DNA of 64,000 bases from an uncultured delta proteobacterium. Lineage in GTDB: Bacteria; Desulfobacterota; Syntrophia; Syntrophales; Smithellaceae. Position numbers and translations under genes: made by a program. The stretch spans positions 40,209 through 104,208 of the forward strand of contig CAWETF010000003.1 of NCBI GenBank assembly GCA_963812045.1, in the 5' to 3' direction. Of this stretch, positions 7,740 through 56,641 are shown one piece after another. A model generated the notes under the pieces. It did not search any database. It saw only the letters and a list, made by a program, of their open reading frames with translations, and was not told the DNA's origin. The first letter of the stretch is position 1, and each line of letters begins with the position of its first letter.

Positions 7740-10700
7740 CTAATGGGCAAGCATCTTTAATAATGCATCAGCCTGCGTCAAAATCTCCTTTTCGGACCCG
7801 CCCTGAATGGGCACAAACAATTTGTAATCCGGTGTAAAACGCAACCCTTTAATTTTCTTATGATAAAGAGTAATAATTTTCGCAGGGTCAACCGGAGATG
7901 AAGCCCTAAAGAAAATATACAAATGTTTGCCGTCATAGCCCATTTTTTTACCCTTCAGGGGCTTAAGGCAATTTCTTATGGTGATTACCTGCAACAAATT
8001 ATCCACTGATCGGGGCAAATCTCCGTAACAATCCTGTAACTCACTTTTAATCTGATTAATTTCTTCATCATTGACGGCCAGAGATATTCTTTTATATAAA
8101 ACCAGCCGCTGATGAACATCCTGCACATACTCTTCCGGGATAAAAGCGGAAATTCCCATCTGAATTTCCGGCAATGAATCTTCTTCAACAATTTCTTCTC
8201 CTTTAATTTCCCGAACCGTCCGCTCCATTAATTCAGTATAGAGTTCATAACCAACAGCGGAAATATGACCTGATTGCGAAATGCCCAGCAGATTCCCGCC
8301 TCCGCGGATTTCCAGATCATTATAAGCTATTCTGAATCCGGATCCGGGCTCGGAAAATTCTTTAATCACCTGCAATCTCTTCATGGCTTCGCGCGAAAGC
8401 ATTGCTCCCCGTGGCAGCAGGAGGTAAGCAAACGCTTCCTGATTGGAACGGCCCACGCGGCCGCGTATCTGATAGAGTTGCGCCAATCCGAACTTTTCGG
8501 CGCGATTGATAATGATTGTATTGGCAGTGGGTATATCCAAACCGGACCCGATAATAGTGGTGCAAACCAGCACTTCACATTCGTGCCGGATAAATCCTGT
8601 CATGGCTTTTTCAATTTCCGCCGGTTTCATTTGACCGTGAACGACCGATACCCTTGCCTGCGGCACCAGACGCTGCACCAGACGAGCAATAGAATAAATT
8701 GAACGCACCCTGTCATGAACAAAGAATATCTGTCCCTGACGCGCCAGTTCTTTCTCTATAGCGGATTTAATCGCGTCTTCATCAAATTCCAAAACATACG
8801 TTTTTATGGACACGCGATCTTCCGGCGGCGTATTAATAATAGACAAATCCCTGATGCCGACCAGCGACAAATGAAGCGTTCGCGGGATAGGAGTTGCCGA
8901 GAGAGTGAGCACATCAACGAGTGTGCGCATCTTTTTTAATTTTTCTTTGTGCGCCACGCCGAAGCGCTGTTCTTCATCAATGATCACCAGTCCCAAATCT
9001 TTAAATTCAACGTCCTTTTGCAACAGGCGATGTGTCCCCACGACAATATCTACCTTTTGGTTTTTCATCTCTTCAATAATTTTCTTTTGTTCTGCAGTAC
9101 TCTTGAAACGATTTAACACTTCCACGCGAACCGGGAAATCCCGGAAACGTCGGGAAAAAGTCTGATAATGCTGTTCCGCCAGAATAGTTGTGGGCACTAA
9201 AACGGCAACCTGCTTGCCGTCCATCACAGCCCGGAAAGCCGACCTGATTGCAACTTCCGTTTTACCGAAACCGGCGTCGCCGCAAATCAGCCTGTCCATC
9301 GGCTTGGAATCATCCATGTCCATATGGATATCTTCAATCGCCTTATTCTGATCCGGTGTTTCTTCAAATTCAAAAGTGGAGCAAAATTCCTCGTAAATCC
9401 GGTCGGGCGGTGCGAAAGATTTCCTCTCCAGGGCTTCGCGGGCGGCATAGATCGCAACCAGTTCCTCGGCATATTCCCGCACCGATTTTTTAACCTTTTC
9501 TTTCACCGCTTCCCACGAAGTTCCGCCCATCTTATCCATCTTCGGCACATAACCGTCCGGTCCGAGATAGCGTTGAATTTTCTCCAGTGAATTAACGGGA
9601 ATGTAGAGTTTGTCGCTGTCCAGATACTCGATAATTAAAAAATCGTTCTCAATCTTGCCCACGGTAATTTTTTTCAATCCACGATAAACACCGATGCCGA
9701 AATCAGTATGAACGATAAAATCATTTTCCTTTAAATCACCGAATGATTTAATAAAGTACCCTTCCCGCGCGGGCCTGACGCGGCGGCGGGGAGCTTTTTT
9801 GACAAAAATTTCTTCTTCACTTAAAAAGACCAGCTTCATTGCCGGTATAATAAAGCTGGTGGAAATTTCACCTTCCAGCAAAACAAGCCAAGAACTCCCT
9901 TCGCAGCGGTCAATAAATTCCAGAACAGATTCTTGAGAAAATAAAATCTCCACAGGCAAGTCGTAGGACAAAAGCAGATGCTTCATTCGTTGAACCGCCT
10001 CCGGAGCCGGACAAAATAAAAAAATCAACATGCCTTCGGACAGCCACAATTTAATCTTTTCCGCGGTCCACCTCAAACACGCGTCTTCCTTAATCTCACC
10101 GGCATGCAATTCTCCCGTGCAAAGATATTGATGAGTTTCAAACGCAATGATGATTGCCGCGTTATCTTTTTCCTGATCCAGATTGAGATCTTCCAGAGAA
10201 ATTTGTCCGAACCTGTCGAGACCGGCCATGATACCGGCCGCGTCAACATAAGTATTTTCTTTTTCCAGATAAAATTTGCCGCTGTTTTTAGTTTTAAATA
10301 ACAACTTGTCGATACTGAGTTCGGCATTGATGATTGACTGATTTACAGCCAGCGGATTATCCAGAATCACCAAAGTATTTTTCGAAAGATAATTAAAAAG
10401 ATTTGACAATTTATCACGTGAAAGCCCACCGCTGTTATCGTACGATTCATAAAACAAGGGTAAAAATATCGGATTGATGGAATTGGTCAAACCGTCCTTC
10501 AGAGAACCCACCAGACGGTTACGAATTTCACGGGATAATGAAAGATCATCTGCCCGCCGCCTGATATTGCGGACGGCCAGTTCCAAAGTGGACGGATTGA
10601 TAATGACTTCACTTGCCGGCGGCACAATGAAAACATCCGTCGCGCTTGTTGAGCGCTGCGAGGAGCCGTCAAACATCCGGATGGATTCGATGTCATCACC

Positions 10701-50166: not shown

Positions 50167-50571
50167 TTGAATCATATTACGCCCCCGGTATCTGCTATGC
50201 TGTTCAAGGCTTTGGTAACAATTTTGATTTGTAATGCAGTTTTCGTGATTATCTCCATCCCGTTGATTTTGCGCAAAGTGCCTAGAAATATTGTTTACGG
50301 TTTCCGCACGAGAGCCACATTGGAAAATGACTTCGTCTGGTACGAAGCCAACGCTTACTTTGGCAAGCTTTTCTTAATCAGCAGTCTTGTTTCCGCGCTT
50401 CTGATGGTATTCCTTTATTTATCGGATATTTTTCCCATGGAGAATTTTATTAAAACCAGTATTGCTGTGTTGGTTGTTCCCTCAATGGTCGCGGTTTTGT
50501 TGACGTTTAACTATATAAAGAAGTTAAATAAAATTGGCAGGGATGAAGCTAAAAAAAAGAAAACTCCATGA
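50167..50571 (+). CDS. Small membrane protein, SdpI/YhfL-like
   Basis: The sequence PRNIVYGFRTRATLENDFVWYEAN between TM segments resembles the SdpI-family N-x2-G-x-R-T...W motif. The start is a non-ATG TTG. Confidence 0.4.
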   Translation: MNHITPPVSAMLFKALVTILICNAVFVIISIPLILRKVPRNIVYGFRTRATLENDFVWYEANAYFGKLFLISSLVSALLMVFLYLSDIFPMENFIKTSIAVLVVPSMVAVLLTFNYIKKLNKIGRDEAKKKKTP

Positions 50572-50584
50572 GGCCCGGTTTTCT

Positions 50585-51259
50585 TTATGGGCAGGGTTCG
50601 AACTTATATCCAACACTATAGACGGATTGGATTAATGTTGCTTCAGGATCAACTGTTTCGATTTTTCTCCGTAATTTTTTTATGTGACTGTCTATTGTGC
50701 GGTCGCTGACAAAGCGCTCCTCTTGATAAATTTTATCCATAATCTGCTGACGGCTGAAAATATGACCGGGATGTTCGACGAGGATTTTAAGCAGCTTGAA
50801 TTCCACGGCAGTCAATTCCAACTCTCGGCCATGAAGAGTGGCCTGGTAGGTGTGTTCATCAAGAACAAGCCCCTGTGCCTGAAGAGTCTGACCATCAAGG
50901 GTTCGGCGCAGGACCGCCTTGACCCTTGCTACAACTTCACGCGGGCTGAAAGGTTTGCAGATATAATCGTCCGCGCCAAGTTCAAGTCCCAGTAAACGAT
51001 CGATTTCCTCGATCCTCGCGGTTACCATAATGATGGGTACACGGGAAAAAGTCCGGATACTTTTGCATATTTCCATGCCATCGCGTCCGGGCAACATAAT
51101 ATCCAGAATGATCAAATGGGGTTTGTTTTCCCGCACCCAGGTTTCGACCTGTGTGCCTTCGAATAGAGTGAAAACTTCAAAGAGGGAGGCTTTCAAATAA
51201 TCAGCCAGCAGCGCGGCAAGTTTCGGTTCGTCTTCCACAATGAGTATTTTTTCTGTCAC
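50585..51259 (-). CDS. OmpR/PhoB-family response regulator (winged-helix DNA binding)
   Basis: ILIVEDE...LDIMLPGRDG...KPF receiver domain. C-terminal LTAVEFKLLxxL...R..DxHIxxLRRKIE...I.SVYSVGYKF. Confidence 0.9.
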   Translation of the reverse strand: MTEKILIVEDEPKLAALLADYLKASLFEVFTLFEGTQVETWVRENKPHLIILDIMLPGRDGMEICKSIRTFSRVPIIMVTARIEEIDRLLGLELGADDYICKPFSPREVVARVKAVLRRTLDGQTLQAQGLVLDEHTYQATLHGRELELTAVEFKLLKILVEHPGHIFSRQQIMDKIYQEERFVSDRTIDSHIKKLRRKIETVDPEATLIQSVYSVGYKFEPCP

Positions 51260-52686
51260 CGGCGTCCCTCGTAAACAGGTATTTTGATTCGTATTAGTAA
51301 TCCGCCCAGAGGCGATGGGTGCGCTGATATAATTCCGTCATGCGCGTCAACGATTTTTTTGCTTATCGTTAATCCGAGACCGGCGCCACCGGAACTCCTG
51401 TTGCGTGATCCTTCCACACGGTAGAATCGTTCGAATAATCTTTCCATATCATCTGCAGAAACTCCGGGCTTCGAATCCTGAAATTCAATTGTGATGAAAT
51501 CGCCATTGATTTTGGCTGCTATTTCAAGGGTACCCCCCGCATCTGTATATTTCAGGGAATTTTCCAGCAAGTTTGCATAAAGCTGTTTCAGCCGTTCTCT
51601 GTCGGCAAATCCGATGGCCTTCATACTGCCGGGGATATTTTCTTTGAGAGTAATGCCTTTGCGGTCAAACTCCGTGCGATAAGATTGTATGGAATCTCTG
51701 AGAGTTTTTATCAGATCAAGATTCTCCTTATGATAGGTCAATGTGCCAAGATCAGACAGAGAAATCTGGTAGAGATCTTCCACCAGACGTTTCAGCCGCA
51801 ACGTTTCCGCATGAAGGGAGTGAATGGTTTCCGGAGTCGTTTGATGGATGCCATCCAGCAGAGCTTCAATTTCACCCTGGAGCACAGCAACAGGGGTGCG
51901 TAATTCGTGAGAAATATCGGCAATCCATTGACGCCGTTCTTTTTCATGCTTTTCCAATGTCAACGCCATGGCGTTAAAATCACGCGCCAGTTGACCCAGT
52001 TCATCCGTGGATGAGAAAGAAATGCGCGTAGTATATTTTCCAGAGGCAATGTCATGAGTGGCCGCAGCCATCGCCCGAATCGGTTTGACAATTCGCCGCG
52101 CAAGCGGAAATGAAATAATAATAACAATCAGAACCACGCCGGCGGCTCCCAGGACAAGCGCAAGTTTTTGCTGACTGAGGAACCTGCCCTGCATAGGATG
52201 ATGGAAATGCTCCGGTGAAATAAGTCCTACATAACCTGCTTTGTTGCCATGAACAATAATCGGATGCAAATCTATTTTTTCATCCGGAGGGTAAAAGCCA
52301 TAAATTAATTGCTTGTCAGGATTTAAGATGACGAAAGGGTTGGGGGAATGGTTCCCGCGTGGACCCATCGGTGGATTGTCGAAGTGTCGATCTCTATCCT
52401 GTGCAAAAAGCGGGGGACGATCCATCGGAGGTTCGGGAGGTGGCATGGAATCGTCCGGATTCCAGTGCGGCGGTTTGGTTTTTAAAAAATCCCAGTTTTG
52501 ATTTTGTTCGTATTTTTTTCCCAGATCATCCGCAATCTGCACTAATTTTTTTTGCTCCAGATTTCCAAGATACTGAGAAAATCCCCTGTCAATATTCCAC
52601 CACATAATCAATATAAGGAAGAGAATCGCCAAACCGGTAGCGCACAGGATTAATAAAAACAGGCGATAAGTAATTCCCATCTTCAT
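51256..52686 (-). CDS. Sensor histidine kinase (2 TM, Pro-rich periplasmic loop, HAMP, HisKA, HATPase_c), BaeS/CpxA-like
   Basis: H-box ADISHELRTPV, N-box NLLENSLKY and G-boxes DSKPGV / GGAGLGLTI. 4-nt overlap with the response-regulator gene. Confidence 0.9.
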   Translation of the reverse strand: MKMGITYRLFLLILCATGLAILFLILIMWWNIDRGFSQYLGNLEQKKLVQIADDLGKKYEQNQNWDFLKTKPPHWNPDDSMPPPEPPMDRPPLFAQDRDRHFDNPPMGPRGNHSPNPFVILNPDKQLIYGFYPPDEKIDLHPIIVHGNKAGYVGLISPEHFHHPMQGRFLSQQKLALVLGAAGVVLIVIIISFPLARRIVKPIRAMAAATHDIASGKYTTRISFSSTDELGQLARDFNAMALTLEKHEKERRQWIADISHELRTPVAVLQGEIEALLDGIHQTTPETIHSLHAETLRLKRLVEDLYQISLSDLGTLTYHKENLDLIKTLRDSIQSYRTEFDRKGITLKENIPGSMKAIGFADRERLKQLYANLLENSLKYTDAGGTLEIAAKINGDFITIEFQDSKPGVSADDMERLFERFYRVEGSRNRSSGGAGLGLTISKKIVDAHDGIISAHPSPLGGLLIRIKIPVYEGRR

Positions 52687-52861
52687 GGTTGCATTTCACC
52701 TCTAATGCCAGTTTATTGATATAGCGTTTGAGCGTCAAGACTAAAAAGCACAACAGCCAAAAGTCGAAAGAAAGGATTCTTTATACTTATAATCAAAATT
52801 TCTTTTGTTATCGTTTGTTTACCATACATATAACCCCAGATAAGATAAAAACAGTTATCTC

Positions 52862-52914
52862 AAATTTCCTCATTTCCTTCATATTTGTGCCACATTTGAC
52901 TGCTATGATTCGTT
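52862..52914 (+). promoter_or_regulatory. Conserved promoter module 1: phased direct repeat CATATTTG-N3-CACATTTG plus TATGAT -10 (candidate response-regulator box)
   Basis: 46/53 identical to 54991-55043. Half-sites at 52880-52887 and 52891-52898 are 11 bp start to start. TATGAT is at 52904-52909. The module ends 47 nt before the GTG start at 52962. Confidence 0.55.
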
Positions 52915-52961
52915 CTACAGGCAGTTAAGCTGAATATCATGATAAATGAGGAGAGGGAATA

Positions 52962-54953
52962 GTGAAAAAAAATGAAGCACATGGAAGCTCTGTTGAGTTG
53001 TTGCAGAACGTTTCTGACGGGACTTTCAAGAAAGATATAATCAAAAGATACCATAGTACAAACGTAACGGCCGTCGCACTGTTGATATTATGTTTTTTGA
53101 CTGTAATGGGTTGCGGAAGTGATTCTACGGATACTTCAACCGATGCGAACGCCGGCACAACTGCCACTACAACCGTGCTGGGCGTATCTTCTGCGTCGGT
53201 AACTTACGGAACAAGTGTCACATTGACGGCGACGATCACGCCGGCAGCCGCGACCGGAACGGTTACCTTCTATGATGGCACGACATCGCTGGGCACAGCA
53301 ACGCTGAGTTCCGGATCAGCTTCACTGGTGACCAGTACGCTGGCCGTGGGGTCGCATACCATTACCGCTTCTTACGGAGGATCGAGTACCTATGCCATCA
53401 GCACCTCAGGCTCGATAACAGTTACAATTAGCACGTCTTCCGCGACCGCCTCAATCACACTCTCTGCCTCGCCGACTTCGGTTACTGTCGGCAGCGGCGT
53501 TGCGCTTACGGTTGTCGTTTCACCCATCACTTCAACCGGGACCGTAACTTTTTATGATGGATCCAGTATTCTTGGAACAGCCAATCTGATTTCCGGCTCG
53601 GCCACCGCAACCCTGACGACAACGGCATTGGCCGCCGGTACACACACCATTACTGCCGGCTATTCATCGATCACATCGAATTCCGTCAAGGTATCTATTA
53701 CGACTGCCACTGCGGGTAGCTTCACCTCGGGTAGCTCCTGTGGTACCAATGCAGGGACGAGTGCCTATGTGCTCAGCTCAGGGATGCTCATTACCAATGG
53801 CGCTAGTTACTCGACATCTAGCGCGGACCAGAGCGCTATTTGCGTCAATGGTGCGAGCGCTTATCTGACGCTTCTCAATCCGACCATTTCCACCAGCGGC
53901 GCCACCTCGTCAACCGACAACTCCAGCTTTTATGGTTTAGATGCGGCAGTGCTGGATTACAATGGCGGTGATCTTACCATTGACGGTGGTACCATCAGCA
54001 CGACGGGACAGGGAGGGAATAATGTCTTTGCCTATGGAACAGGCACAGTAACGATCAGCAATGCCACGGTGAAGGCTACGGGTGCCAACGGCCACGGTTT
54101 ATATGCGGCCGGGGGTGGCACAATGGTTGTAAACAACGTAACCGCTTCGAGTTCGGGCCAATCCGGTTCTATCGTGGCAACGGATCGCGGTGGCGGCACC
54201 ATCACGATTACCGGTGGCACCTACTTAGCAAGCGGACAACGCTCCGCTGGCATCTATTCTACCGGTGTAGTAACTGCCATAAACGCGACATTTAGCGCAA
54301 CCAACGCTGAGGCCATCGTGATCGAGGGAAGTAATACGGCCACCTTGACCAATTCCATCCTGATCGCAACGTCAAACACAAGTGAACATCGCGGTATCTT
54401 CCTTTACCACAGTATTTCGGGCGATGCTGACAATACGACATGCGGCAGACTGGGCTCATGCTTCACGATGACGGGCGGGTCGTTTACCTATACCGATACG
54501 ACAAACTCCAGTTCCACGGCGACCTCCAACTGCGCCGCCTTTGTCAACTCCAACTCGACGGCGTATTTTTCACTCACTGATGTCACGATAAACAATAGCT
54601 GTCCGACACTGCTGCTCTCAGCGCTTAACTCGAATTGGCCGGAAGCTGGCGGCACCACCACTTTCGAGGCGTATGGTGTAACCTTGAGCGGTAACGTAAT
54701 CGTGGACGCCAATAGCACGGCTGATATCACTCTCTCTTCCAGCGCCAGCGTCGCTTCTATACTTACAGGCGCAATCAATAGCGCGAACTCCGGATCGACG
54801 AAAATGGCGTTGACTCTCGATGCTGCCAGTAAATGGGTGATGACGGGAACATCGTATTTGACTGCTTTAACTGATGCCGATATTTCCTATAGTAACATCA
54901 CCAAGAGTTGTTCTTCCTGTTATGTTTATGTGGGAGGCTCGGTTATTAAATAA
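52962..54953 (+). CDS. Large secreted/lipoprotein: two or three Ig-like repeats followed by a Gly/Thr/Ser-rich parallel beta-helix-like domain
   Basis: Hydrophobic leader ending LTVMGC (lipobox-like). Repeated TVTFYDG(T/S)xxLGTAxLxSGSA...HTITA(S/G)Y units are characteristic of bacterial Ig-like domains. The C-terminal ~400 aa has periodic G-G-x-I/V-T-I/V turns. Confidence 0.6.
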   Translation: MKKNEAHGSSVELLQNVSDGTFKKDIIKRYHSTNVTAVALLILCFLTVMGCGSDSTDTSTDANAGTTATTTVLGVSSASVTYGTSVTLTATITPAAATGTVTFYDGTTSLGTATLSSGSASLVTSTLAVGSHTITASYGGSSTYAISTSGSITVTISTSSATASITLSASPTSVTVGSGVALTVVVSPITSTGTVTFYDGSSILGTANLISGSATATLTTTALAAGTHTITAGYSSITSNSVKVSITTATAGSFTSGSSCGTNAGTSAYVLSSGMLITNGASYSTSSADQSAICVNGASAYLTLLNPTISTSGATSSTDNSSFYGLDAAVLDYNGGDLTIDGGTISTTGQGGNNVFAYGTGTVTISNATVKATGANGHGLYAAGGGTMVVNNVTASSSGQSGSIVATDRGGGTITITGGTYLASGQRSAGIYSTGVVTAINATFSATNAEAIVIEGSNTATLTNSILIATSNTSEHRGIFLYHSISGDADNTTCGRLGSCFTMTGGSFTYTDTTNSSSTATSNCAAFVNSNSTAYFSLTDVTINNSCPTLLLSALNSNWPEAGGTTTFEAYGVTLSGNVIVDANSTADITLSSSASVASILTGAINSANSGSTKMALTLDAASKWVMTGTSYLTALTDADISYSNITKSCSSCYVYVGGSVIK

Positions 54954-54990
54954 CACCGTCGCGTGTATGAAAAGAAAGATCAATTATTTT

Positions 54991-55043
54991 AAATTTTCTC
55001 ATTTCCTTCATATTTGCGTCATATTTGTCTGTTATGATTCATT
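54991..55043 (+). promoter_or_regulatory. Conserved promoter module 2: CATATTTG-N3-CATATTTG plus TATGAT -10
   Basis: Half-sites at 55009-55016 and 55020-55027 (11-bp phasing). TATGAT is at 55033-55038. The module ends 48 nt before ATG 55092. Confidence 0.55.
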
Positions 55044-55091
55044 TCACAAAGTAGTAGAGGATTGTGATCAAATGAAAGGAGCGTGTTGAGC

Positions 55092-55397
55092 ATGAACAAA
55101 TTAATGATCAGTATAATGCTGGTACTTCTTCTGCTGTCGGCGCAGGCGGAAGAAACGAATAGCCCTCCGACGCAACAGCAGGGACGCATGATGAAGCCTC
55201 CGCCGGAAGCGATTGCCGCCTGCACAGGAAAGAGCGAAGGAACTACCGTGCAGTTTACCACTCCGCGCGGGGATACGCTCAAGGGTGTCTGTAAACAGGT
55301 TGACGGTGTGCTGGCAGCTATGCCGCCTGATGGAGGAGCGCCACCGCCGAAAGGCAGCAAACCTGATGAAGGCAATGGCGGACAATCGTCGAATTAA
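55092..55397 (+). CDS. Small secreted Pro-rich protein with two Cys
   Basis: AAGGAG RBS 10 nt upstream. Signal peptide MNKLMISIMLVLLLLSAQA. The mature part is PPPEAIAACTGKSEGTTVQFTTPRGDTLKGVCKQVDGVLAAMPP. Confidence 0.55.
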   Translation: MNKLMISIMLVLLLLSAQAEETNSPPTQQQGRMMKPPPEAIAACTGKSEGTTVQFTTPRGDTLKGVCKQVDGVLAAMPPDGGAPPPKGSKPDEGNGGQSSN

Positions 55398-55434
55398 CTT
55401 TAAAAAAGGGCTTTATTGTAAAGGAGAAAGTATA

Positions 55435-56019
55435 ATGAAAAAAATATTAAGTTGCTTCGTTTTAAGTTTTTTAATTTTGTTTATTGCATTGCAGTTGTCT
55501 TATGCGGAATCAGTTCCCTTAATGGATAAACCGGAAAAGGGTTTTCAGGAAGAGGGTTTCCCTCCGATGATGCCTTCCTGCCCCTGTCCCATGGAACAAA
55601 TGGAAGGGATGCCGGGATTCGGACATTATTTCTGGATGCAGATGGATGAACTTAAGTTTGATGAAAAGCAGAAGGATGCGTTGAAAGAAATTGAAAACGC
55701 CGCCTTAAAGGAATTGATCAGAAAGAGAGCCGATAAGCAGATTGCCGAAATTGAATTGAGGGAACTTCTGGAAAAGGAGAGCGTCGATTTGAAGGCAGTC
55801 GAGGCAAAGCTAAAACAGATTGCGGCCATTAACGCCGAAACGCAGTTGATTGCCATTAAATCAATGGAAAGCATGAAAGCTAAACTGACTCCCGAACAGC
55901 GTCAAATGCTTAAGAAATTAAGACCGATGGAAGATCGAATGAAGCCGCCTATGATGAGAAAGGGAATGCGTGACGAAATGAAAATGCCTCCGCCCCATGC
56001 CGGGGAAAAAGGAGAATAA
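55435..56019 (+). CDS. Periplasmic Spy/CpxP/ZraP-family (LTxxQ motif) stress protein
   Basis: AAGGAGAAAG RBS and signal peptide MKKILSCFVLSFLILFIALQLSYA. It is a helical Lys/Glu-rich protein with LTPEQRQMLKKL (LTxxQ) and an earlier degenerate KFDEKQKDAL copy. Confidence 0.65.
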   Translation: MKKILSCFVLSFLILFIALQLSYAESVPLMDKPEKGFQEEGFPPMMPSCPCPMEQMEGMPGFGHYFWMQMDELKFDEKQKDALKEIENAALKELIRKRADKQIAEIELRELLEKESVDLKAVEAKLKQIAAINAETQLIAIKSMESMKAKLTPEQRQMLKKLRPMEDRMKPPMMRKGMRDEMKMPPPHAGEKGE

Positions 56020-56023
56020 CAAA

Positions 56024-56641
56024 GTGAATGATCAAAGGAGAATTTTTACTCAATTTTTGTTTTGTTTCCTGAGTTTCATGCTTCTGATAGTGGTTGGTTG
56101 CAGCATCAATGATGATACTGCAACGACCTACACTATTTCCGGCGCGGCAACTATATATGGAACTGGAGATTCTCTTGCCAATGTAACAATCAATCTGACG
56201 GGTGCGGCAACCTCCTCTACAGCAACTAACTCAAACGGAGCCTTCAGCTTTACCGGAGCGGCGAATGGGACATATATGCTGACCCCCTCTCTTGCGGACT
56301 ATACATTCAATCCAGTCAGTACCGTAGTCATTATCGACGGAGCAAATATAACCGACACTAACTTTGTAGCGATGTCTACTGGTGGCGCTGACACTTACAG
56401 CATTTCCGGAACGATTACCGGCTACATTCAGTCGGATGTCAAGCTTACGTTAAGCGGTGGTACATCAGGAACGGTAATGACAGCCTCTGACGGAACCTAT
56501 TCTTTTGCGAACGTCGAGGGTGGTAATACCTATATAGTGACGCCATCCCTGTCGGGTTATACTTTTTATCCTGTGTATAGAGAATTTACGATAGGTACGG
56601 AAAATGCTGCTAATATTGATTTTACATCATCATCGGATTGA
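56024..56641 (+). CDS. Lipoprotein with two carboxypeptidase-regulatory-like (CarboxypepD_reg) beta-sandwich repeats
   Basis: GTG 56024 lies 9 nt after GGAG, or the start may be ATG 55997. Lipobox LIVVGC. The unit Y(T/S)ISG...(S/N)xxGxY(S/M)(F/L)...G(T/N)Y...TPSLxxYTFxP occurs twice. Confidence 0.55.
   Translation: MNDQRRIFTQFLFCFLSFMLLIVVGCSINDDTATTYTISGAATIYGTGDSLANVTINLTGAATSSTATNSNGAFSFTGAANGTYMLTPSLADYTFNPVSTVVIIDGANITDTNFVAMSTGGADTYSISGTITGYIQSDVKLTLSGGTSGTVMTASDGTYSFANVEGGNTYIVTPSLSGYTFYPVYREFTIGTENAANIDFTSSSD

What the first reader, a model, noticed from the sequence alone, without database searches (positions are those of the whole stretch)
50585..56641. Two-component system divergent from a putative envelope-stress regulon marked by a duplicated 53-nt promoter module
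Seen: an OmpR-type RR and a HAMP histidine kinase (minus strand) face two plus-strand transcription units. Both units are preceded, at nearly the same distance from the start codon (47 and 48 nt), by a 53-nt segment that is 46/53 identical (52862-52914 vs 54991-55043). Each module contains a direct repeat CAYATTTG-N3-CAYATTTG with 11-bp start-to-start phasing, ending 5 nt upstream of a TATGAT -10 hexamer, so it covers the region where a -35 hexamer would normally sit. Established: OmpR/PhoB-family regulators bind tandem direct repeats with about one helical turn of spacing that replace or overlap the -35 element (the pho-box paradigm). Cpx/Bae/Zra systems control LTxxQ-motif periplasmic proteins. 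Inference: the adjacent RR binds these boxes and co-activates four exported proteins, namely an Ig-like/beta-helix lipoprotein, a small two-Cys Pro-rich protein, a Spy/CpxP-like protein and a CarboxypepD_reg lipoprotein. I do not recognise that combination as a described regulon.
Basis: partly seen in the sequence, partly recalled or inferred. Interest (0 to 1): 0.6.

Follow-up and report, generated by a model that had tools for sequence, protein, structure and literature searches.

The report
BaeSR-like envelope-stress system with duplicated operator
A Smithella-like bacterium carries a relative of the E. coli BaeS/BaeR envelope-stress sensor next to two promoters with the same conserved regulator-binding box, so this is a new example of a known system, not a new kind.

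Summary
The two 53-nt segments are 46/53 identical, and the repeat extends to 73 nt at 81%. Nothing else like them occurs in the 64 kb.

The box has three 11-bp units, not two (consensus nnCCWYATTTS). It is followed at fixed spacing by an extended -10 (TGnTAnnnT), and there is no -35.

The regulator's best match by a wide margin is E. coli BaeR (57.7% identity, near-identical recognition helix). The kinase is best matched, over its full length, by the BaeS models.

The box is kept at the orthologous position in Smithella/Syntrophales, Nitrospirota and Planctomycetota genomes. A matrix built only from those loci picks the published BaeR boxes of E. coli mdtA, spy and acrD as the top hit in each region.

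The usual layout is the two-component system divergent from a small 2-Cys protein and a Spy-like gene, often followed by a MacAB/OMF-type efflux pump or the CarboxypepD_reg lipoprotein gene. Here the Ig-like lipoprotein gene sits between them and a second promoter copy precedes the small-protein operon.

Binding, start sites and the signal remain untested. The uncharacterised 2-Cys protein family is the most original element.

The parts
50585..51259 (-). BaeR-like OmpR/PhoB-family response regulator (224 aa)
   Evidence: Pfam Response_reg + Trans_reg_C. The best NCBIfam model is the BaeR equivalog at 322 bits, against 226 for the next (PhoB), but below the 380 cutoff. The best PDB match is E. 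coli BaeR 4B09, E=1.5e-79, against 4e-50 for the next. Identity is 57.7% over 220 aa, and the recognition helix DRTIDSHIKKLRRKIE compares with DRTIDSHIKNLRRKLE in E. coli.
51256..52686 (-). BaeS-like sensor histidine kinase (476 aa). It has two TM segments, a Pro/His-rich periplasmic domain of about 144 aa, and HAMP, HisKA and HATPase_c domains. It overlaps the RR start by 4 nt.
   Evidence: Pfam. NCBIfam BaeS_SmeS 428.6 bits and E. coli BaeS 418 bits over the full length, against 212 for the next model (WalK); both are below the curated cutoffs of 500 and 603. JGI names close homologues BaeS.
52710..52738 (-). Candidate sigma-70 promoter of the HK-RR operon (TTGACG-17-TAAACT)
   Evidence: Consensus scan. 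The segment is one of the two strongly conserved islands of the intergenic region in 10 aligned loci and is also kept in the Nitrospirota loci L016 and L018. Function is inferred.
52847..52919 (+). Promoter module copy 1 (73-nt repeat), upstream of the Ig-like lipoprotein gene
   Evidence: the repeat finder D1, 81% identity to copy 2.
52862..52898 (+). Operator 1: three 11-bp direct units, A 52866-52876 (TTCCTCATTTC), B 52877-52887 (CTTCATATTTG) and C 52888-52898 (TGCCACATTTG)
   Evidence: PWM 51.6 bits; unit consensus from 43 other sites; in register with the E. coli BaeR boxes.
52901..52909 (+). Extended -10 of promoter 1 (TGC TATGAT); no -35 hexamer
   Evidence: In 43 other sites the same positions carry TG in 33, TA in 42 and T in 35. 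The promoter scan finds no -35 partner. The start site is not mapped.
52962..54953 (+). Exported lipoprotein with two Ig-like (Big_3_5) domains and a repeat-rich C-terminal region of unknown family
   Evidence: Pfam. No family or PDB match for the C-terminal part. Homologues are found only in L009 at the same position (47-53% identity) and in L087 at another position (51-68% identity in two tblastn segments).
54976..55048 (+). Promoter module copy 2 (73-nt repeat), upstream of the small-protein operon
   Evidence: the repeat finder D1. Its leader after the -10 (TATGATTCATTTCACAAA) matches the leader after the box in L081 and L087, where Spy-like and smallCys respectively are the first gene.
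54991..55027 (+). Operator 2: units A 54995-55005, B 55006-55016 and C 55017-55027
   Evidence: PWM 48.0 bits.
55030..55038 (+). Extended -10 of promoter 2 (TGT TATGAT)
   Evidence: Same register as promoter 1.
55092..55397 (+). Small secreted 2-Cys protein (101 aa) of an uncharacterised family. It is the commonest first gene after the box.
   Evidence: No Pfam or NCBIfam match. 73 homologues, all named hypothetical. Invariant C44 and C67 and the motif PPPEA..AC.GKSEG..V.FTTPRGDT..G.C. First gene at 19 of 43 sites.
55435..56019 (+). Spy/CpxP/ZraP-superfamily periplasmic protein (194 aa) with Met/Cys-rich ends
   Evidence: Pfam Metal_resist 38.6 bits and LTXXQ 24.9 bits, both above their cutoffs. 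The NCBIfam Spy equivalog gives only 25 bits against a 174 cutoff. CpxP in the PDB gives E=0.5.
56024..56641 (+). Lipoprotein with two CarboxypepD_reg-like domains. It starts 4 nt after the Spy-like stop codon.
   Evidence: Pfam 45.5 bits. It has its own copy of the box where it is separated from the operon, in L001, L004, L005 and L101.

Best explanation
This is a BaeS/BaeR-type envelope-stress two-component system of a Smithella-like (Syntrophales) bacterium, with two local target promoters.

**Proposed mechanism (inferred).**
- The kinase senses a periplasmic or envelope signal and phosphorylates the regulator.
- The regulator binds head-to-tail to tandem 11-bp units (nnCCWYATTTS, three per promoter).
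- These units occupy roughly -50 to -18 and so replace the -35 element.
- Binding recruits RNA polymerase to an extended -10 promoter (TGnTATGAT).

**Predicted consequence.** Two transcription units are switched on together: the Ig-like lipoprotein gene, and the operon of the small 2-Cys protein, the Spy-like protein and the CarboxypepD_reg lipoprotein.

**Origin of the second copy.** The ancestral arrangement has one promoter, divergent from the two-component system, driving smallCys-Spy-like (plus an efflux pump and/or the CarboxypepD_reg gene). In this lineage the lipoprotein gene lies directly behind that promoter, and a second copy of the 73-nt promoter module serves the displaced operon.

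**Shown here:** the homologies, the operator conservation, the match to the E. coli BaeR box, and the gene contexts.

**Inferred:** binding, activation, start sites and the signal.
For: **The regulator and kinase are BaeR/BaeS homologues.**
- RR: the BaeR equivalog is the top NCBIfam hit by about 95 bits, and the top PDB hit is BaeR 4B09.
- Identity to E. coli BaeR is 57.7%, and the recognition helix is 14/16 identical.
- HK: the BaeS models match over the full length at about twice the score of any other family.

**The box is phylogenetically footprinted.**
- It is one of the two main conserved islands of the intergenic region.
- It is present at the orthologous place in Smithella loci, in Nitrospirota (L016, L018) and in Planctomycetota (L013).

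**Cross-prediction in E. coli.** A PWM built from 14 such modules (window and E. coli excluded) gives as the single best hit in each region:
- 3 kb around mdtA: 10.3 bits.
- 12 kb around spy: 10.8 bits.
- 6 kb around acrD: -5.3 bits.

Each hit is exactly the sequence that matches the published BaeR consensus TTTTTCTCCATDATTGGC.

**Downstream genes fit a Bae regulon.**
- Non-redundant tally of the first gene after the box at 43 sites: smallCys 19, Spy-like 2, OMF 2, CarboxypepD_reg 2.
- Redundant count of ORFs anywhere in the downstream chains: Spy-like 24, smallCys 12, OMF 10, HlyD-type MFP 7, plus ABC ATPase and MacB permease.
- BaeSR control of spy and efflux pumps, including MacAB-TolC, is documented (PMC2731931; abstract of PMC4498774).

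**Promoter architecture.**
- TGnTAnnnT is conserved at fixed spacing after the box, and there is no -35.
- The mdtA box of E. coli ends 54 nt before the start codon, so it must also abut its -10.

**Secondary copies.** Copies of the box precede relocated regulon genes in other genomes (CarboxypepD_reg in L001/L004/L005/L101, a Cthe_2159 lipoprotein in L011, an OMF in L013). Promoter-module duplication is therefore a recurrent way of keeping genes in the regulon.
Against: - No binding, start-site or expression data exist for this organism.
- Both proteins score below NCBI's equivalog cutoffs (322 vs 380; 428.6 vs 500), so orthology with functional identity is not established.
- The gene order differs from E. 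coli, where baeSR ends the mdtABCD operon.
- This window has no efflux pump.
- The Spy-like protein is only a distant superfamily member.
- Unit C would lie in the -35/-10 spacer, an unusual place for an activator.
- Both window boxes carry T instead of the otherwise invariant C at module position 18 (0 of 43 other sites), which could weaken binding.
- The two modules are no more alike (59/73) than each is to orthologous modules elsewhere (57-61/73), so the age and mechanism of the duplication are unclear.
- The register of a -10-like TACACT after the E. coli spy box may be coincidental. As far as I recall, the CpxR site and the mapped spy promoter lie further downstream; I did not verify this.
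Confidence: 0.8

Rival explanations
1. The box is a real operator, but it is bound by a different transcription factor encoded elsewhere. Its position next to the two-component system would then be incidental.
For: No binding data exist. Of the 34 high-scoring sites with enough upstream sequence, 11 are not next to a BaeS-like kinase. A TetR/CecR-type regulator gene sits inside some of the operons (L001, L066).
Against: 23 of the 34 testable sites have a divergent BaeS-like kinase within 900 nt, across three phyla. The sites without a kinase are mostly second copies in loci that also hold the two-component system. Tandem 11-bp direct units are the OmpR/PhoB-family signature (established knowledge), not the palindromes typical of TetR operators. 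The matrix also recovers the E. coli BaeR boxes.
Confidence: 0.07
2. The 53-73-nt segment is a generic interspersed or mobile repeat, or a low-complexity satellite, with no regulatory role.
For: The exact-pattern scan of metagenomes also returned many TTCATATTTCC tandem arrays, mostly from one plant metagenome assembly. One full module (L141) has no co-directional gene.
Against: The satellites lack the flanks (AAATTTCC... and CTGCTAnnAT). All but one (L061, 40.0 bits) score 18-35 bits, against 40-61 bits for the modules, and they show no neighbouring homologue of the locus genes. The window holds only two copies. The copies sit at a fixed distance upstream of start codons, about 65-76 nt for smallCys. 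There are no terminal inverted repeats around them.
Confidence: 0.02
3. The conserved segment encodes or belongs to an RNA element (a leader, riboswitch or small RNA), not a DNA operator.
For: The leaders of 45-75 nt after the -10 are partly conserved among close relatives.
Against: There is no Rfam match at E<=1 in 52500-55500. The strongest conservation lies upstream of the conserved -10, and conservation decays downstream of it. The 11-bp direct-repeat structure is not a hairpin, and no inverted repeat is present in the modules.
Confidence: 0.02
4. The regulator does bind the boxes, but only one of the two window promoters still works. The other would be a decaying by-product of the rearrangement that inserted the lipoprotein gene.
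For: In L009 the promoter ahead of the homologous lipoprotein gene has lost one 11-bp unit and scores 26 bits, against 61 bits for the operon copy. In L087 the lipoprotein gene has no box of its own.
Against: Both window copies keep all three units and the extended -10, and both score high (51.6 and 48.0 bits). The L009 deletion is exactly one helical turn, which preserves the phasing and looks selected, not decayed.
Confidence: 0.08

Closest known systems
E. coli/Salmonella BaeSR envelope-stress system (targets spy, mdtABCD-baeSR, acrD)
   Same: The regulator is 57.7% identical with a near-identical recognition helix. The kinase aligns over its full length to the BaeS models. The operator core (YTCCATAWTTG preceded by a T-rich ATTTC) is shared and is mutually predictable by PWM. 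Targets include a Spy/CpxP-superfamily periplasmic protein and, in sister genomes, a tripartite efflux pump. At mdtA the box abuts the -10, as it does here.
   Different: The two-component system is divergent from its targets, not at the end of an efflux operon, and has its own conserved sigma-70-like promoter. There are three clean 11-bp units in place of the 18-mer consensus. The first target gene is an uncharacterised 2-Cys protein that E. coli lacks. The pump in relatives is the MacAB (ABC) type, not RND, and is absent from this window. The Spy-like protein is Met/Cys-rich and only distantly related to Spy. The host is an anaerobic syntroph.
Acinetobacter baumannii BaeSR control of MacAB-TolC (PMC4498774)
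   Same: A BaeSR-type system linked to a MacAB-type ABC tripartite pump, as in the orthologous operons L001, L005 and L018.
   Different: In A. baumannii the link is from expression data. Here it is an operator and operon arrangement in relatives, and the window itself has no pump.
PhoB/pho-box class II activation (OmpR/PhoB family paradigm; established knowledge)
   Same: Tandem direct repeats with 11-bp phasing replace the -35 element just upstream of a -10.
   Different: The sequence motif is different. There are three units reaching to 5 nt from the -10 hexamer, and an extended -10 (TGn) is conserved.
CpxAR-CpxP and ZraSR-ZraP (other systems that control LTxxQ proteins)
   Same: A two-component system paired with an LTxxQ/Metal_resist periplasmic protein.
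   Different: CpxR and CpxA models score far lower (155 and 177 bits) than BaeR and BaeS. There is no GTAAA-N5-GTAAA in the locus. ZraR is an NtrC/sigma-54 activator (established knowledge), whereas this regulator is OmpR-type.

Membership tests
BaeSR two-component system | Response regulator orthologous to BaeR (OmpR/PhoB family) | tested here: inconclusive
   The BaeR equivalog NF007982 is the best hit at 322 bits, about 95 bits above the next family, but below the curated cutoff of 380. The best PDB hit is BaeR 4B09 at 1.5e-79 with 57.7% identity. It is clearly BaeR-like; strict equivalog status is not reached.
BaeSR two-component system | Sensor kinase with BaeS architecture (TM, periplasmic domain, TM, HAMP, HisKA, HATPase_c) | tested here: inconclusive
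   Domains confirmed. BaeS_SmeS 428.6 bits (cutoff 500) and E. coli BaeS 418 bits (cutoff 603) align over residues 1-470; the next family scores 212.
BaeSR two-component system | Operator resembling the BaeR box (TTTTTCTCCATDATTGGC / TCTNCANAA repeats) | tested here: met
   A PWM from 14 non-E. coli modules places its best hit of each region on the mdtA, spy and acrD boxes. The consensus is quoted from PMC3799227.
BaeSR two-component system | Regulon contains a Spy-type periplasmic chaperone | tested here: inconclusive
   The target protein passes the Pfam Metal_resist and LTXXQ thresholds. It scores 25 bits against a 174 cutoff on the Spy equivalog and E=0.5 to CpxP in the PDB. It is a superfamily member, not a demonstrated Spy orthologue.
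BaeSR two-component system | Regulon contains a multidrug/tripartite efflux pump | tested here: not met
   The window has no pump homologue. OMF + HlyD-type MFP + ABC ATPase + MacB-type permease follow the box-driven operon in L005 and L018; in L001 the first three were seen and the permease ORF was not scanned.
BaeSR two-component system | Induction by envelope-damaging compounds or metals; phosphotransfer from BaeS to BaeR | not testable with these tools
   Needs experiments.
OmpR/PhoB-type class II activated promoter | Tandem direct repeats at about one helical turn that overlap or replace the -35, with a -10 retained | tested here: met
   Three units at exact 11-bp spacing. There is no -35 partner in the scan. 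TGnTAnnnT is conserved 2-5 nt after the last unit. The start site is not mapped.
OmpR/PhoB-type class II activated promoter | Phosphorylated regulator binds the repeats and activates transcription | not testable with these tools
   Needs EMSA, footprinting or reporter assays.
CpxAR-CpxP system | CpxR/CpxA orthologues and GTAAA-N5-GTAAA boxes | tested here: not met
   CpxR scores 155 bits and CpxA 177 bits, far below the Bae models. There is no CpxR-box match in 50-57 kb, and window-wide matches are at the chance level.
Interspersed repeat / mobile element | Many copies, not tied to gene starts, often with terminal inverted repeats | tested here: not met
   There are two copies in 64 kb. Positions upstream of genes are fixed across genomes. 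No inverted repeats flank the modules.

The most novel reading that the evidence does not exclude
The uncharacterised small secreted 2-Cys protein is the commonest first gene behind the BaeR-type box, in Syntrophales and Nitrospirota loci and in metagenome contigs. It could be a new dedicated periplasmic component of Bae-type signalling, for example a co-sensor or feedback modulator of the kinase, as CpxP is for CpxA. Together with the Met/Cys-rich Spy-like protein it could alternatively form a metal (Cu/Zn)-responsive envelope-protection module specific to these anaerobes.
Probability: 0.15. Interest if true: 0.5.

Novelty: new member of a known kind. Interest (0 to 1): 0.3.

Why it matters
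- It extends the BaeSR/Spy envelope-stress paradigm, including its operator sequence and promoter logic, from Enterobacteria to uncultured anaerobic syntrophs (Smithella) and to Nitrospirota and Planctomycetota. BaeR-family DNA specificity is therefore deeply conserved, or the cassette is horizontally mobile.
- It gives a concrete matrix for predicting Bae regulons in metagenome-assembled genomes.
- It shows that regulon membership is maintained by copying a 73-nt promoter module when genes are rearranged.
- It points to an uncharacterised, strongly conserved 2-Cys periplasmic protein as the core target. That protein is the only element here that could yield new biology.

Tried and rejected
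- **First Pfam call:** it failed on a wrong reading frame; coordinates were corrected.
- **Strict regular expression for the full module:** it missed many true sites and was replaced by a PWM.
- **Exact-pattern scan of metagenomes:** half the hits were unrelated TTCATATTTCC satellites, which had to be separated by flanks, score and gene context.
- **Source record:** looking up the source contig through the kinase gave nothing on record, and the cluster look-up gave no names or accessions. The organism is therefore assigned only by similarity to Smithella/Syntrophaceae MAGs.
- **RNA element:** Rfam on the region found no match, so this reading was rejected.
- **Small 2-Cys protein:** AlphaFold gave a confident core, but Foldseek against the PDB gave no match better than E=0.2, so no function is proposed from the fold.
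- **PDB sequence searches:** the Ig-like lipoprotein gave nothing and the Spy-like protein only E=0.5 to CpxP.
- **C-terminal half of the lipoprotein:** Pfam at E<=1 found nothing, so the 'beta-helix' remains untested. tblastn of the L011 Cthe_2159 lipoprotein against the window gave no hit.
- **E. coli promoter positions:** I looked for published start sites for spy and mdtA in two papers and found none. I therefore do not claim that the in-register TACACT after the spy box is its -10.
- **CpxR-box search:** only chance-level matches outside the locus.
- **Promoter/terminator scan:** it is not enriched over shuffles (13 vs 10.4), so its individual hits are used only where conservation backs them.
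- **Whole-genome scan:** it could not be done. Only the 64-kb window and about 0.8 Mb of related loci were available.

Full report
**1. Observation**

The two segments 52862-52914 and 54991-55043 differ at 7 of 53 positions (read). The repeat finder extends the pair to 73 nt (52847-52919 vs 54976-55048, 81%).

With two mismatches allowed there are four hits against 0.38 expected (0 of 100 shuffles reach four). The two additional hits are a third unit, CTCATTTC, exactly 11 bp upstream in both modules. TATGAT follows 5 nt after the last unit, and the distances to the start codons (47 and 48 nt) are as stated.

The gene calls hold:
- an OmpR-type regulator (50585-51259, minus strand);
- a HAMP/HisKA/HATPase_c kinase (51256-52686, minus strand; 4-nt overlap with the regulator gene);
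- a lipoprotein with two Big_3_5 Ig-like domains (52962-54953);
- a 101-aa secreted protein without any family (55092-55397);
- a Metal_resist/LTXXQ protein (55435-56019);
- a CarboxypepD_reg lipoprotein (56024-56641).

The 'beta-helix' of the first protein was not confirmed by any search.

**2. What the two-component system is**

The regulator's best NCBIfam model is the BaeR equivalog at 322 bits, with PhoB next at 226 bits. The score is below the curated cutoff of 380. Its best solved relative is E. coli BaeR (4B09, E=1.5e-79), with MtrA next at 4e-50. Identity is 57.7% over 220 residues. The recognition helix reads DRTIDSHIKKLRRKIE against DRTIDSHIKNLRRKLE in E. coli.

The kinase aligns over residues 1-470 to the BaeS_SmeS model (428.6 bits) and the E. 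coli BaeS model (418 bits). These are twice the score of any other kinase family but again below the cutoffs. JGI/KEGG already labels close homologues 'BaeS'.

The nearest genomes are Smithella/Syntrophaceae MAGs, with kinase identity of 72-83% over the full length and 85-88% in two partial matches. The source record itself could not be named.

**3. Comparative genomics of the locus**

A scan of species-representative genomes with the kinase gave 22 loci. tblastn of the six window proteins onto them shows the common layout: RR<-HK, then divergently smallCys -> Spy-like, often followed by the CarboxypepD_reg gene.

The Ig-like lipoprotein gene lies between the two-component system and smallCys only in the window and in L009. 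In the metagenome contig L087 a homologue (51-68% identity in two tblastn segments) lies after the CarboxypepD_reg gene instead. The window therefore shows a rearranged version in which the lipoprotein gene took the position next to the original promoter, and the displaced operon carries a second promoter copy.

In L001, L005 and the Nitrospirota chromosome L018, smallCys and/or the Spy-like gene are followed by an outer-membrane factor (OEP), a HlyD-type adaptor, an ABC ATPase and a MacB-type permease. The window has no such pump.

**4. The box is conserved and is a BaeR-type operator**

The intergenic regions of 10 Smithella-type loci have two strongly conserved islands.
- The first lies next to the kinase start. 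Read on the minus strand it is TTGACG-17-TAAACT (window 52738..52710).
- The second is the module AWATTTCCTYATTTCYTCCATATTT-nnn-CCAYATTTG-nCTGCTAnnAT.

The same module stands upstream of smallCys in Nitrospirota (L016, L018) and upstream of other genes in a Planctomycetota MAG (L013).

I built a 37-nt matrix from 14 modules, excluding the window and E. coli. It scores the window's two sites 51.6 and 48.0 bits. The next best position in the window scores -2.5, and the best of 20 shuffles -1.3.

The published BaeR consensus sequences are TTTTTCTCCATDATTGGC and TCTNCANAA (quoted in PMC3799227). I applied the matrix to three E. coli K-12 regions fetched from the genome. In each region the single best hit falls on the sequence that matches that consensus:

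| E. coli region | Size | Top hit | Sequence under the hit |
|---|---|---|---|
| mdtA | 3 kb | 10.3 bits | ...TTCCTCCATTTTTCTCCCTTATTGG |
| spy | 12 kb | 10.8 bits | AAATTTTCTTTTTTTCTCCATAATTGGCGC... |
| acrD | 6 kb | -5.3 bits (weak, but top of region) | ...TTTTTTTCTCCACGATTGGC |

Three independent coincidences of this kind are very unlikely by chance. Together with the conserved recognition helix, they identify the module as a BaeR-family operator.

**5. Anatomy of the operator and promoter**

In 43 distinct high-scoring sites outside the window the module resolves into three 11-bp units: A TTCCTCATTTC, B TTCCATATTTG and C CGCCATATTTG.
- Units A and B are almost invariant. Unit C is more variable.
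- TG occurs at module positions 40-41 in 33 of 43 sites, TA at 43-44 in 42 of 43, and T at 48 in 35 of 43. This amounts to an extended -10 at fixed spacing.
- No -35-like hexamer partners the TATGAT elements.
- The E. coli 18-mer corresponds to the tail of unit A plus unit B.

In L009 the promoter ahead of the lipoprotein gene lacks exactly one 11-bp unit, which keeps the helical phase.

The E. coli mdtA box ends 54 nt before the start codon, so it too must abut its -10. For spy I could not verify the start site, and I make no claim about register there.

**6. Is it a generic repeat?**

An exact-pattern scan of metagenome contigs returned two populations.
- **Full modules** have the characteristic flanks and score 40-61 bits.
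- **Unrelated TTCATATTTCC tandem satellites**, largely from one plant metagenome assembly, score 18-35 bits with one exception (L061, 40.0 bits). They have no neighbouring homologue of the locus genes.

Among 43 non-redundant sites of 40 bits or more (window excluded):
- 23 of the 34 with enough upstream sequence have a divergent BaeS-like kinase within 900 nt;
- the rest are mostly second copies in loci that also hold the two-component system, placed ahead of the CarboxypepD_reg gene, an outer-membrane factor, a Cthe_2159 lipoprotein or smallCys;
- the first downstream gene is smallCys at 19 sites;
- other downstream genes encode envelope or exported proteins, such as NHL/Ig lipoproteins, a further LTXXQ protein, an EF-hand protein and a DUF6515-SH3 protein;
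- one module (L141) has no co-directional gene.

No Rfam family matches the region.

**7. Mechanism proposed**

- Shown: the homologies, the operator conservation and cross-prediction, the promoter anatomy and the contexts.
- Inferred: the kinase phosphorylates the regulator on envelope stress. The regulator binds the tandem units head-to-tail across the -35 region and recruits RNA polymerase to the extended -10, as in PhoB-type class II activation (established knowledge). Both transcription units are induced together.
- The two-component system probably has its own promoter about 125 bp away. Autoregulation is not indicated.
- The signal is unknown. The Pro/His-rich periplasmic domain of the kinase, and the Met/Cys-rich ends of the Spy-like protein (PMMPxC kept in orthologues), hint at metals. 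This is speculation.

**8. The duplication**

The two modules are 59/73 identical, no more than each is to orthologous modules elsewhere (57-61/73). Both carry T at module position 18, where all 43 other sites have C. This points to common descent or concerted change within this lineage. The age of the duplication is not resolved.

Module copies ahead of relocated regulon genes recur in other genomes.

**9. Comparison and verdict**

It works like, and is most probably homologous to, BaeSR with its spy and efflux regulon. BaeSR control of MacAB-TolC is documented in A. baumannii (abstract of PMC4498774).

Strict equivalog thresholds are not reached, the gene organisation differs, and the window lacks a pump. 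I therefore file it as a BaeSR-type system, not as 'the' BaeSR.

The Cpx and Zra alternatives fail their tests.

This is a new member of a known kind, of moderate to low interest. The element with real potential is the uncharacterised 2-Cys protein family: 73 homologues, all named hypothetical, with no Pfam match, a confident small fold and no structural neighbour.

Noticed in passing
window 55092-55397 (+); homologues P0121-P0193: An uncharacterised family of small secreted proteins. The core is about 45 aa, PPPEAIxACxGKSEGxxVxFTTPRGDTxxGxCxxxxGxLxAxP, with two invariant Cys. There is no Pfam or NCBIfam match. The AF2 core has pLDDT about 90 (one helix, three strands) and no PDB fold neighbour at E<0.2. 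One homologue (P0123) carries two tandem copies of the domain. It is the commonest first gene behind the BaeR-type box.
   Followed up: partly
window 55435-56019 (+): The Spy-like protein has a Met/Cys-rich N-terminal stretch (PPMMPSCPCPMEQMEGMPGFGH) and a Met-rich C-terminus. A PMMPxC motif recurs in the orthologues in L001, L005, L009 and L011. Its best Pfam family is Metal_resist. This may indicate metal binding.
   Followed up: no
window 52710-52738 (-): A sigma-70-like promoter, TTGACG-17-TAAACT, lies just upstream of the kinase gene. It is conserved in all Smithella-type loci and in the Nitrospirota loci, and is probably the promoter of the two-component system itself.
   Followed up: partly
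window about 52804-52822: A third, weaker conserved island in the divergent intergenic region (TTTGTTATCGTTTGTTTAC; TTGTTATT...TTAC in orthologues). It lies between the two-component-system promoter and the box and has no assigned function.
   Followed up: no
window 52879 and 55008 (module position 18): Both window operators read TTCAT where all 43 other sites read TCCAT. This is a lineage-specific change in the most conserved core of unit B, and it is shared by both copies.
   Followed up: partly
L009 about 7780-7817 (minus strand of the locus): The promoter ahead of the homologous Ig-like lipoprotein gene has lost exactly one 11-bp unit (26 bits against 61 bits for the operon copy in the same locus). 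The deletion preserves helical phasing.
   Followed up: partly
L141 4833-4880 (+): A full-scoring module (55 bits) with its -10 lies between two minus-strand genes (a response regulator and a hybrid kinase) and has no co-directional ORF. It may be a remnant of a rearrangement, or it may drive an unannotated transcript.
   Followed up: partly
L031, L037, L061, L062, L113 and other contigs, many from the ENA UOVY01 plant metagenome: Tandem satellite arrays of TTCATATTTCC-like units of about 10-11 bp match the exact box pattern by chance resemblance. They are unrelated to the operator.
   Followed up: partly
L013, L016, L018 (Planctomycetota and Nitrospirota MAGs): The regulator is 72-74% identical across phyla while the kinase is only 55-63% identical, and the non-coding operator is 29-32/37 identical to the consensus. 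This suggests either strong constraint or horizontal spread of the cassette.
   Followed up: no
window 50167-50571 (+): An SdpI/YfhL-family membrane protein gene converges on the regulator gene. It occupies the same position in L009 and L081. No role is known.
   Followed up: no
window 50720-50745 (within the RR coding region): The RR coding sequence holds a stretch (TTTATCCATAATCTG; TTTTTTCCATAATTTG in the orthologues) that resembles a single box unit. It is a coding-sequence coincidence, not a full site.
   Followed up: partly
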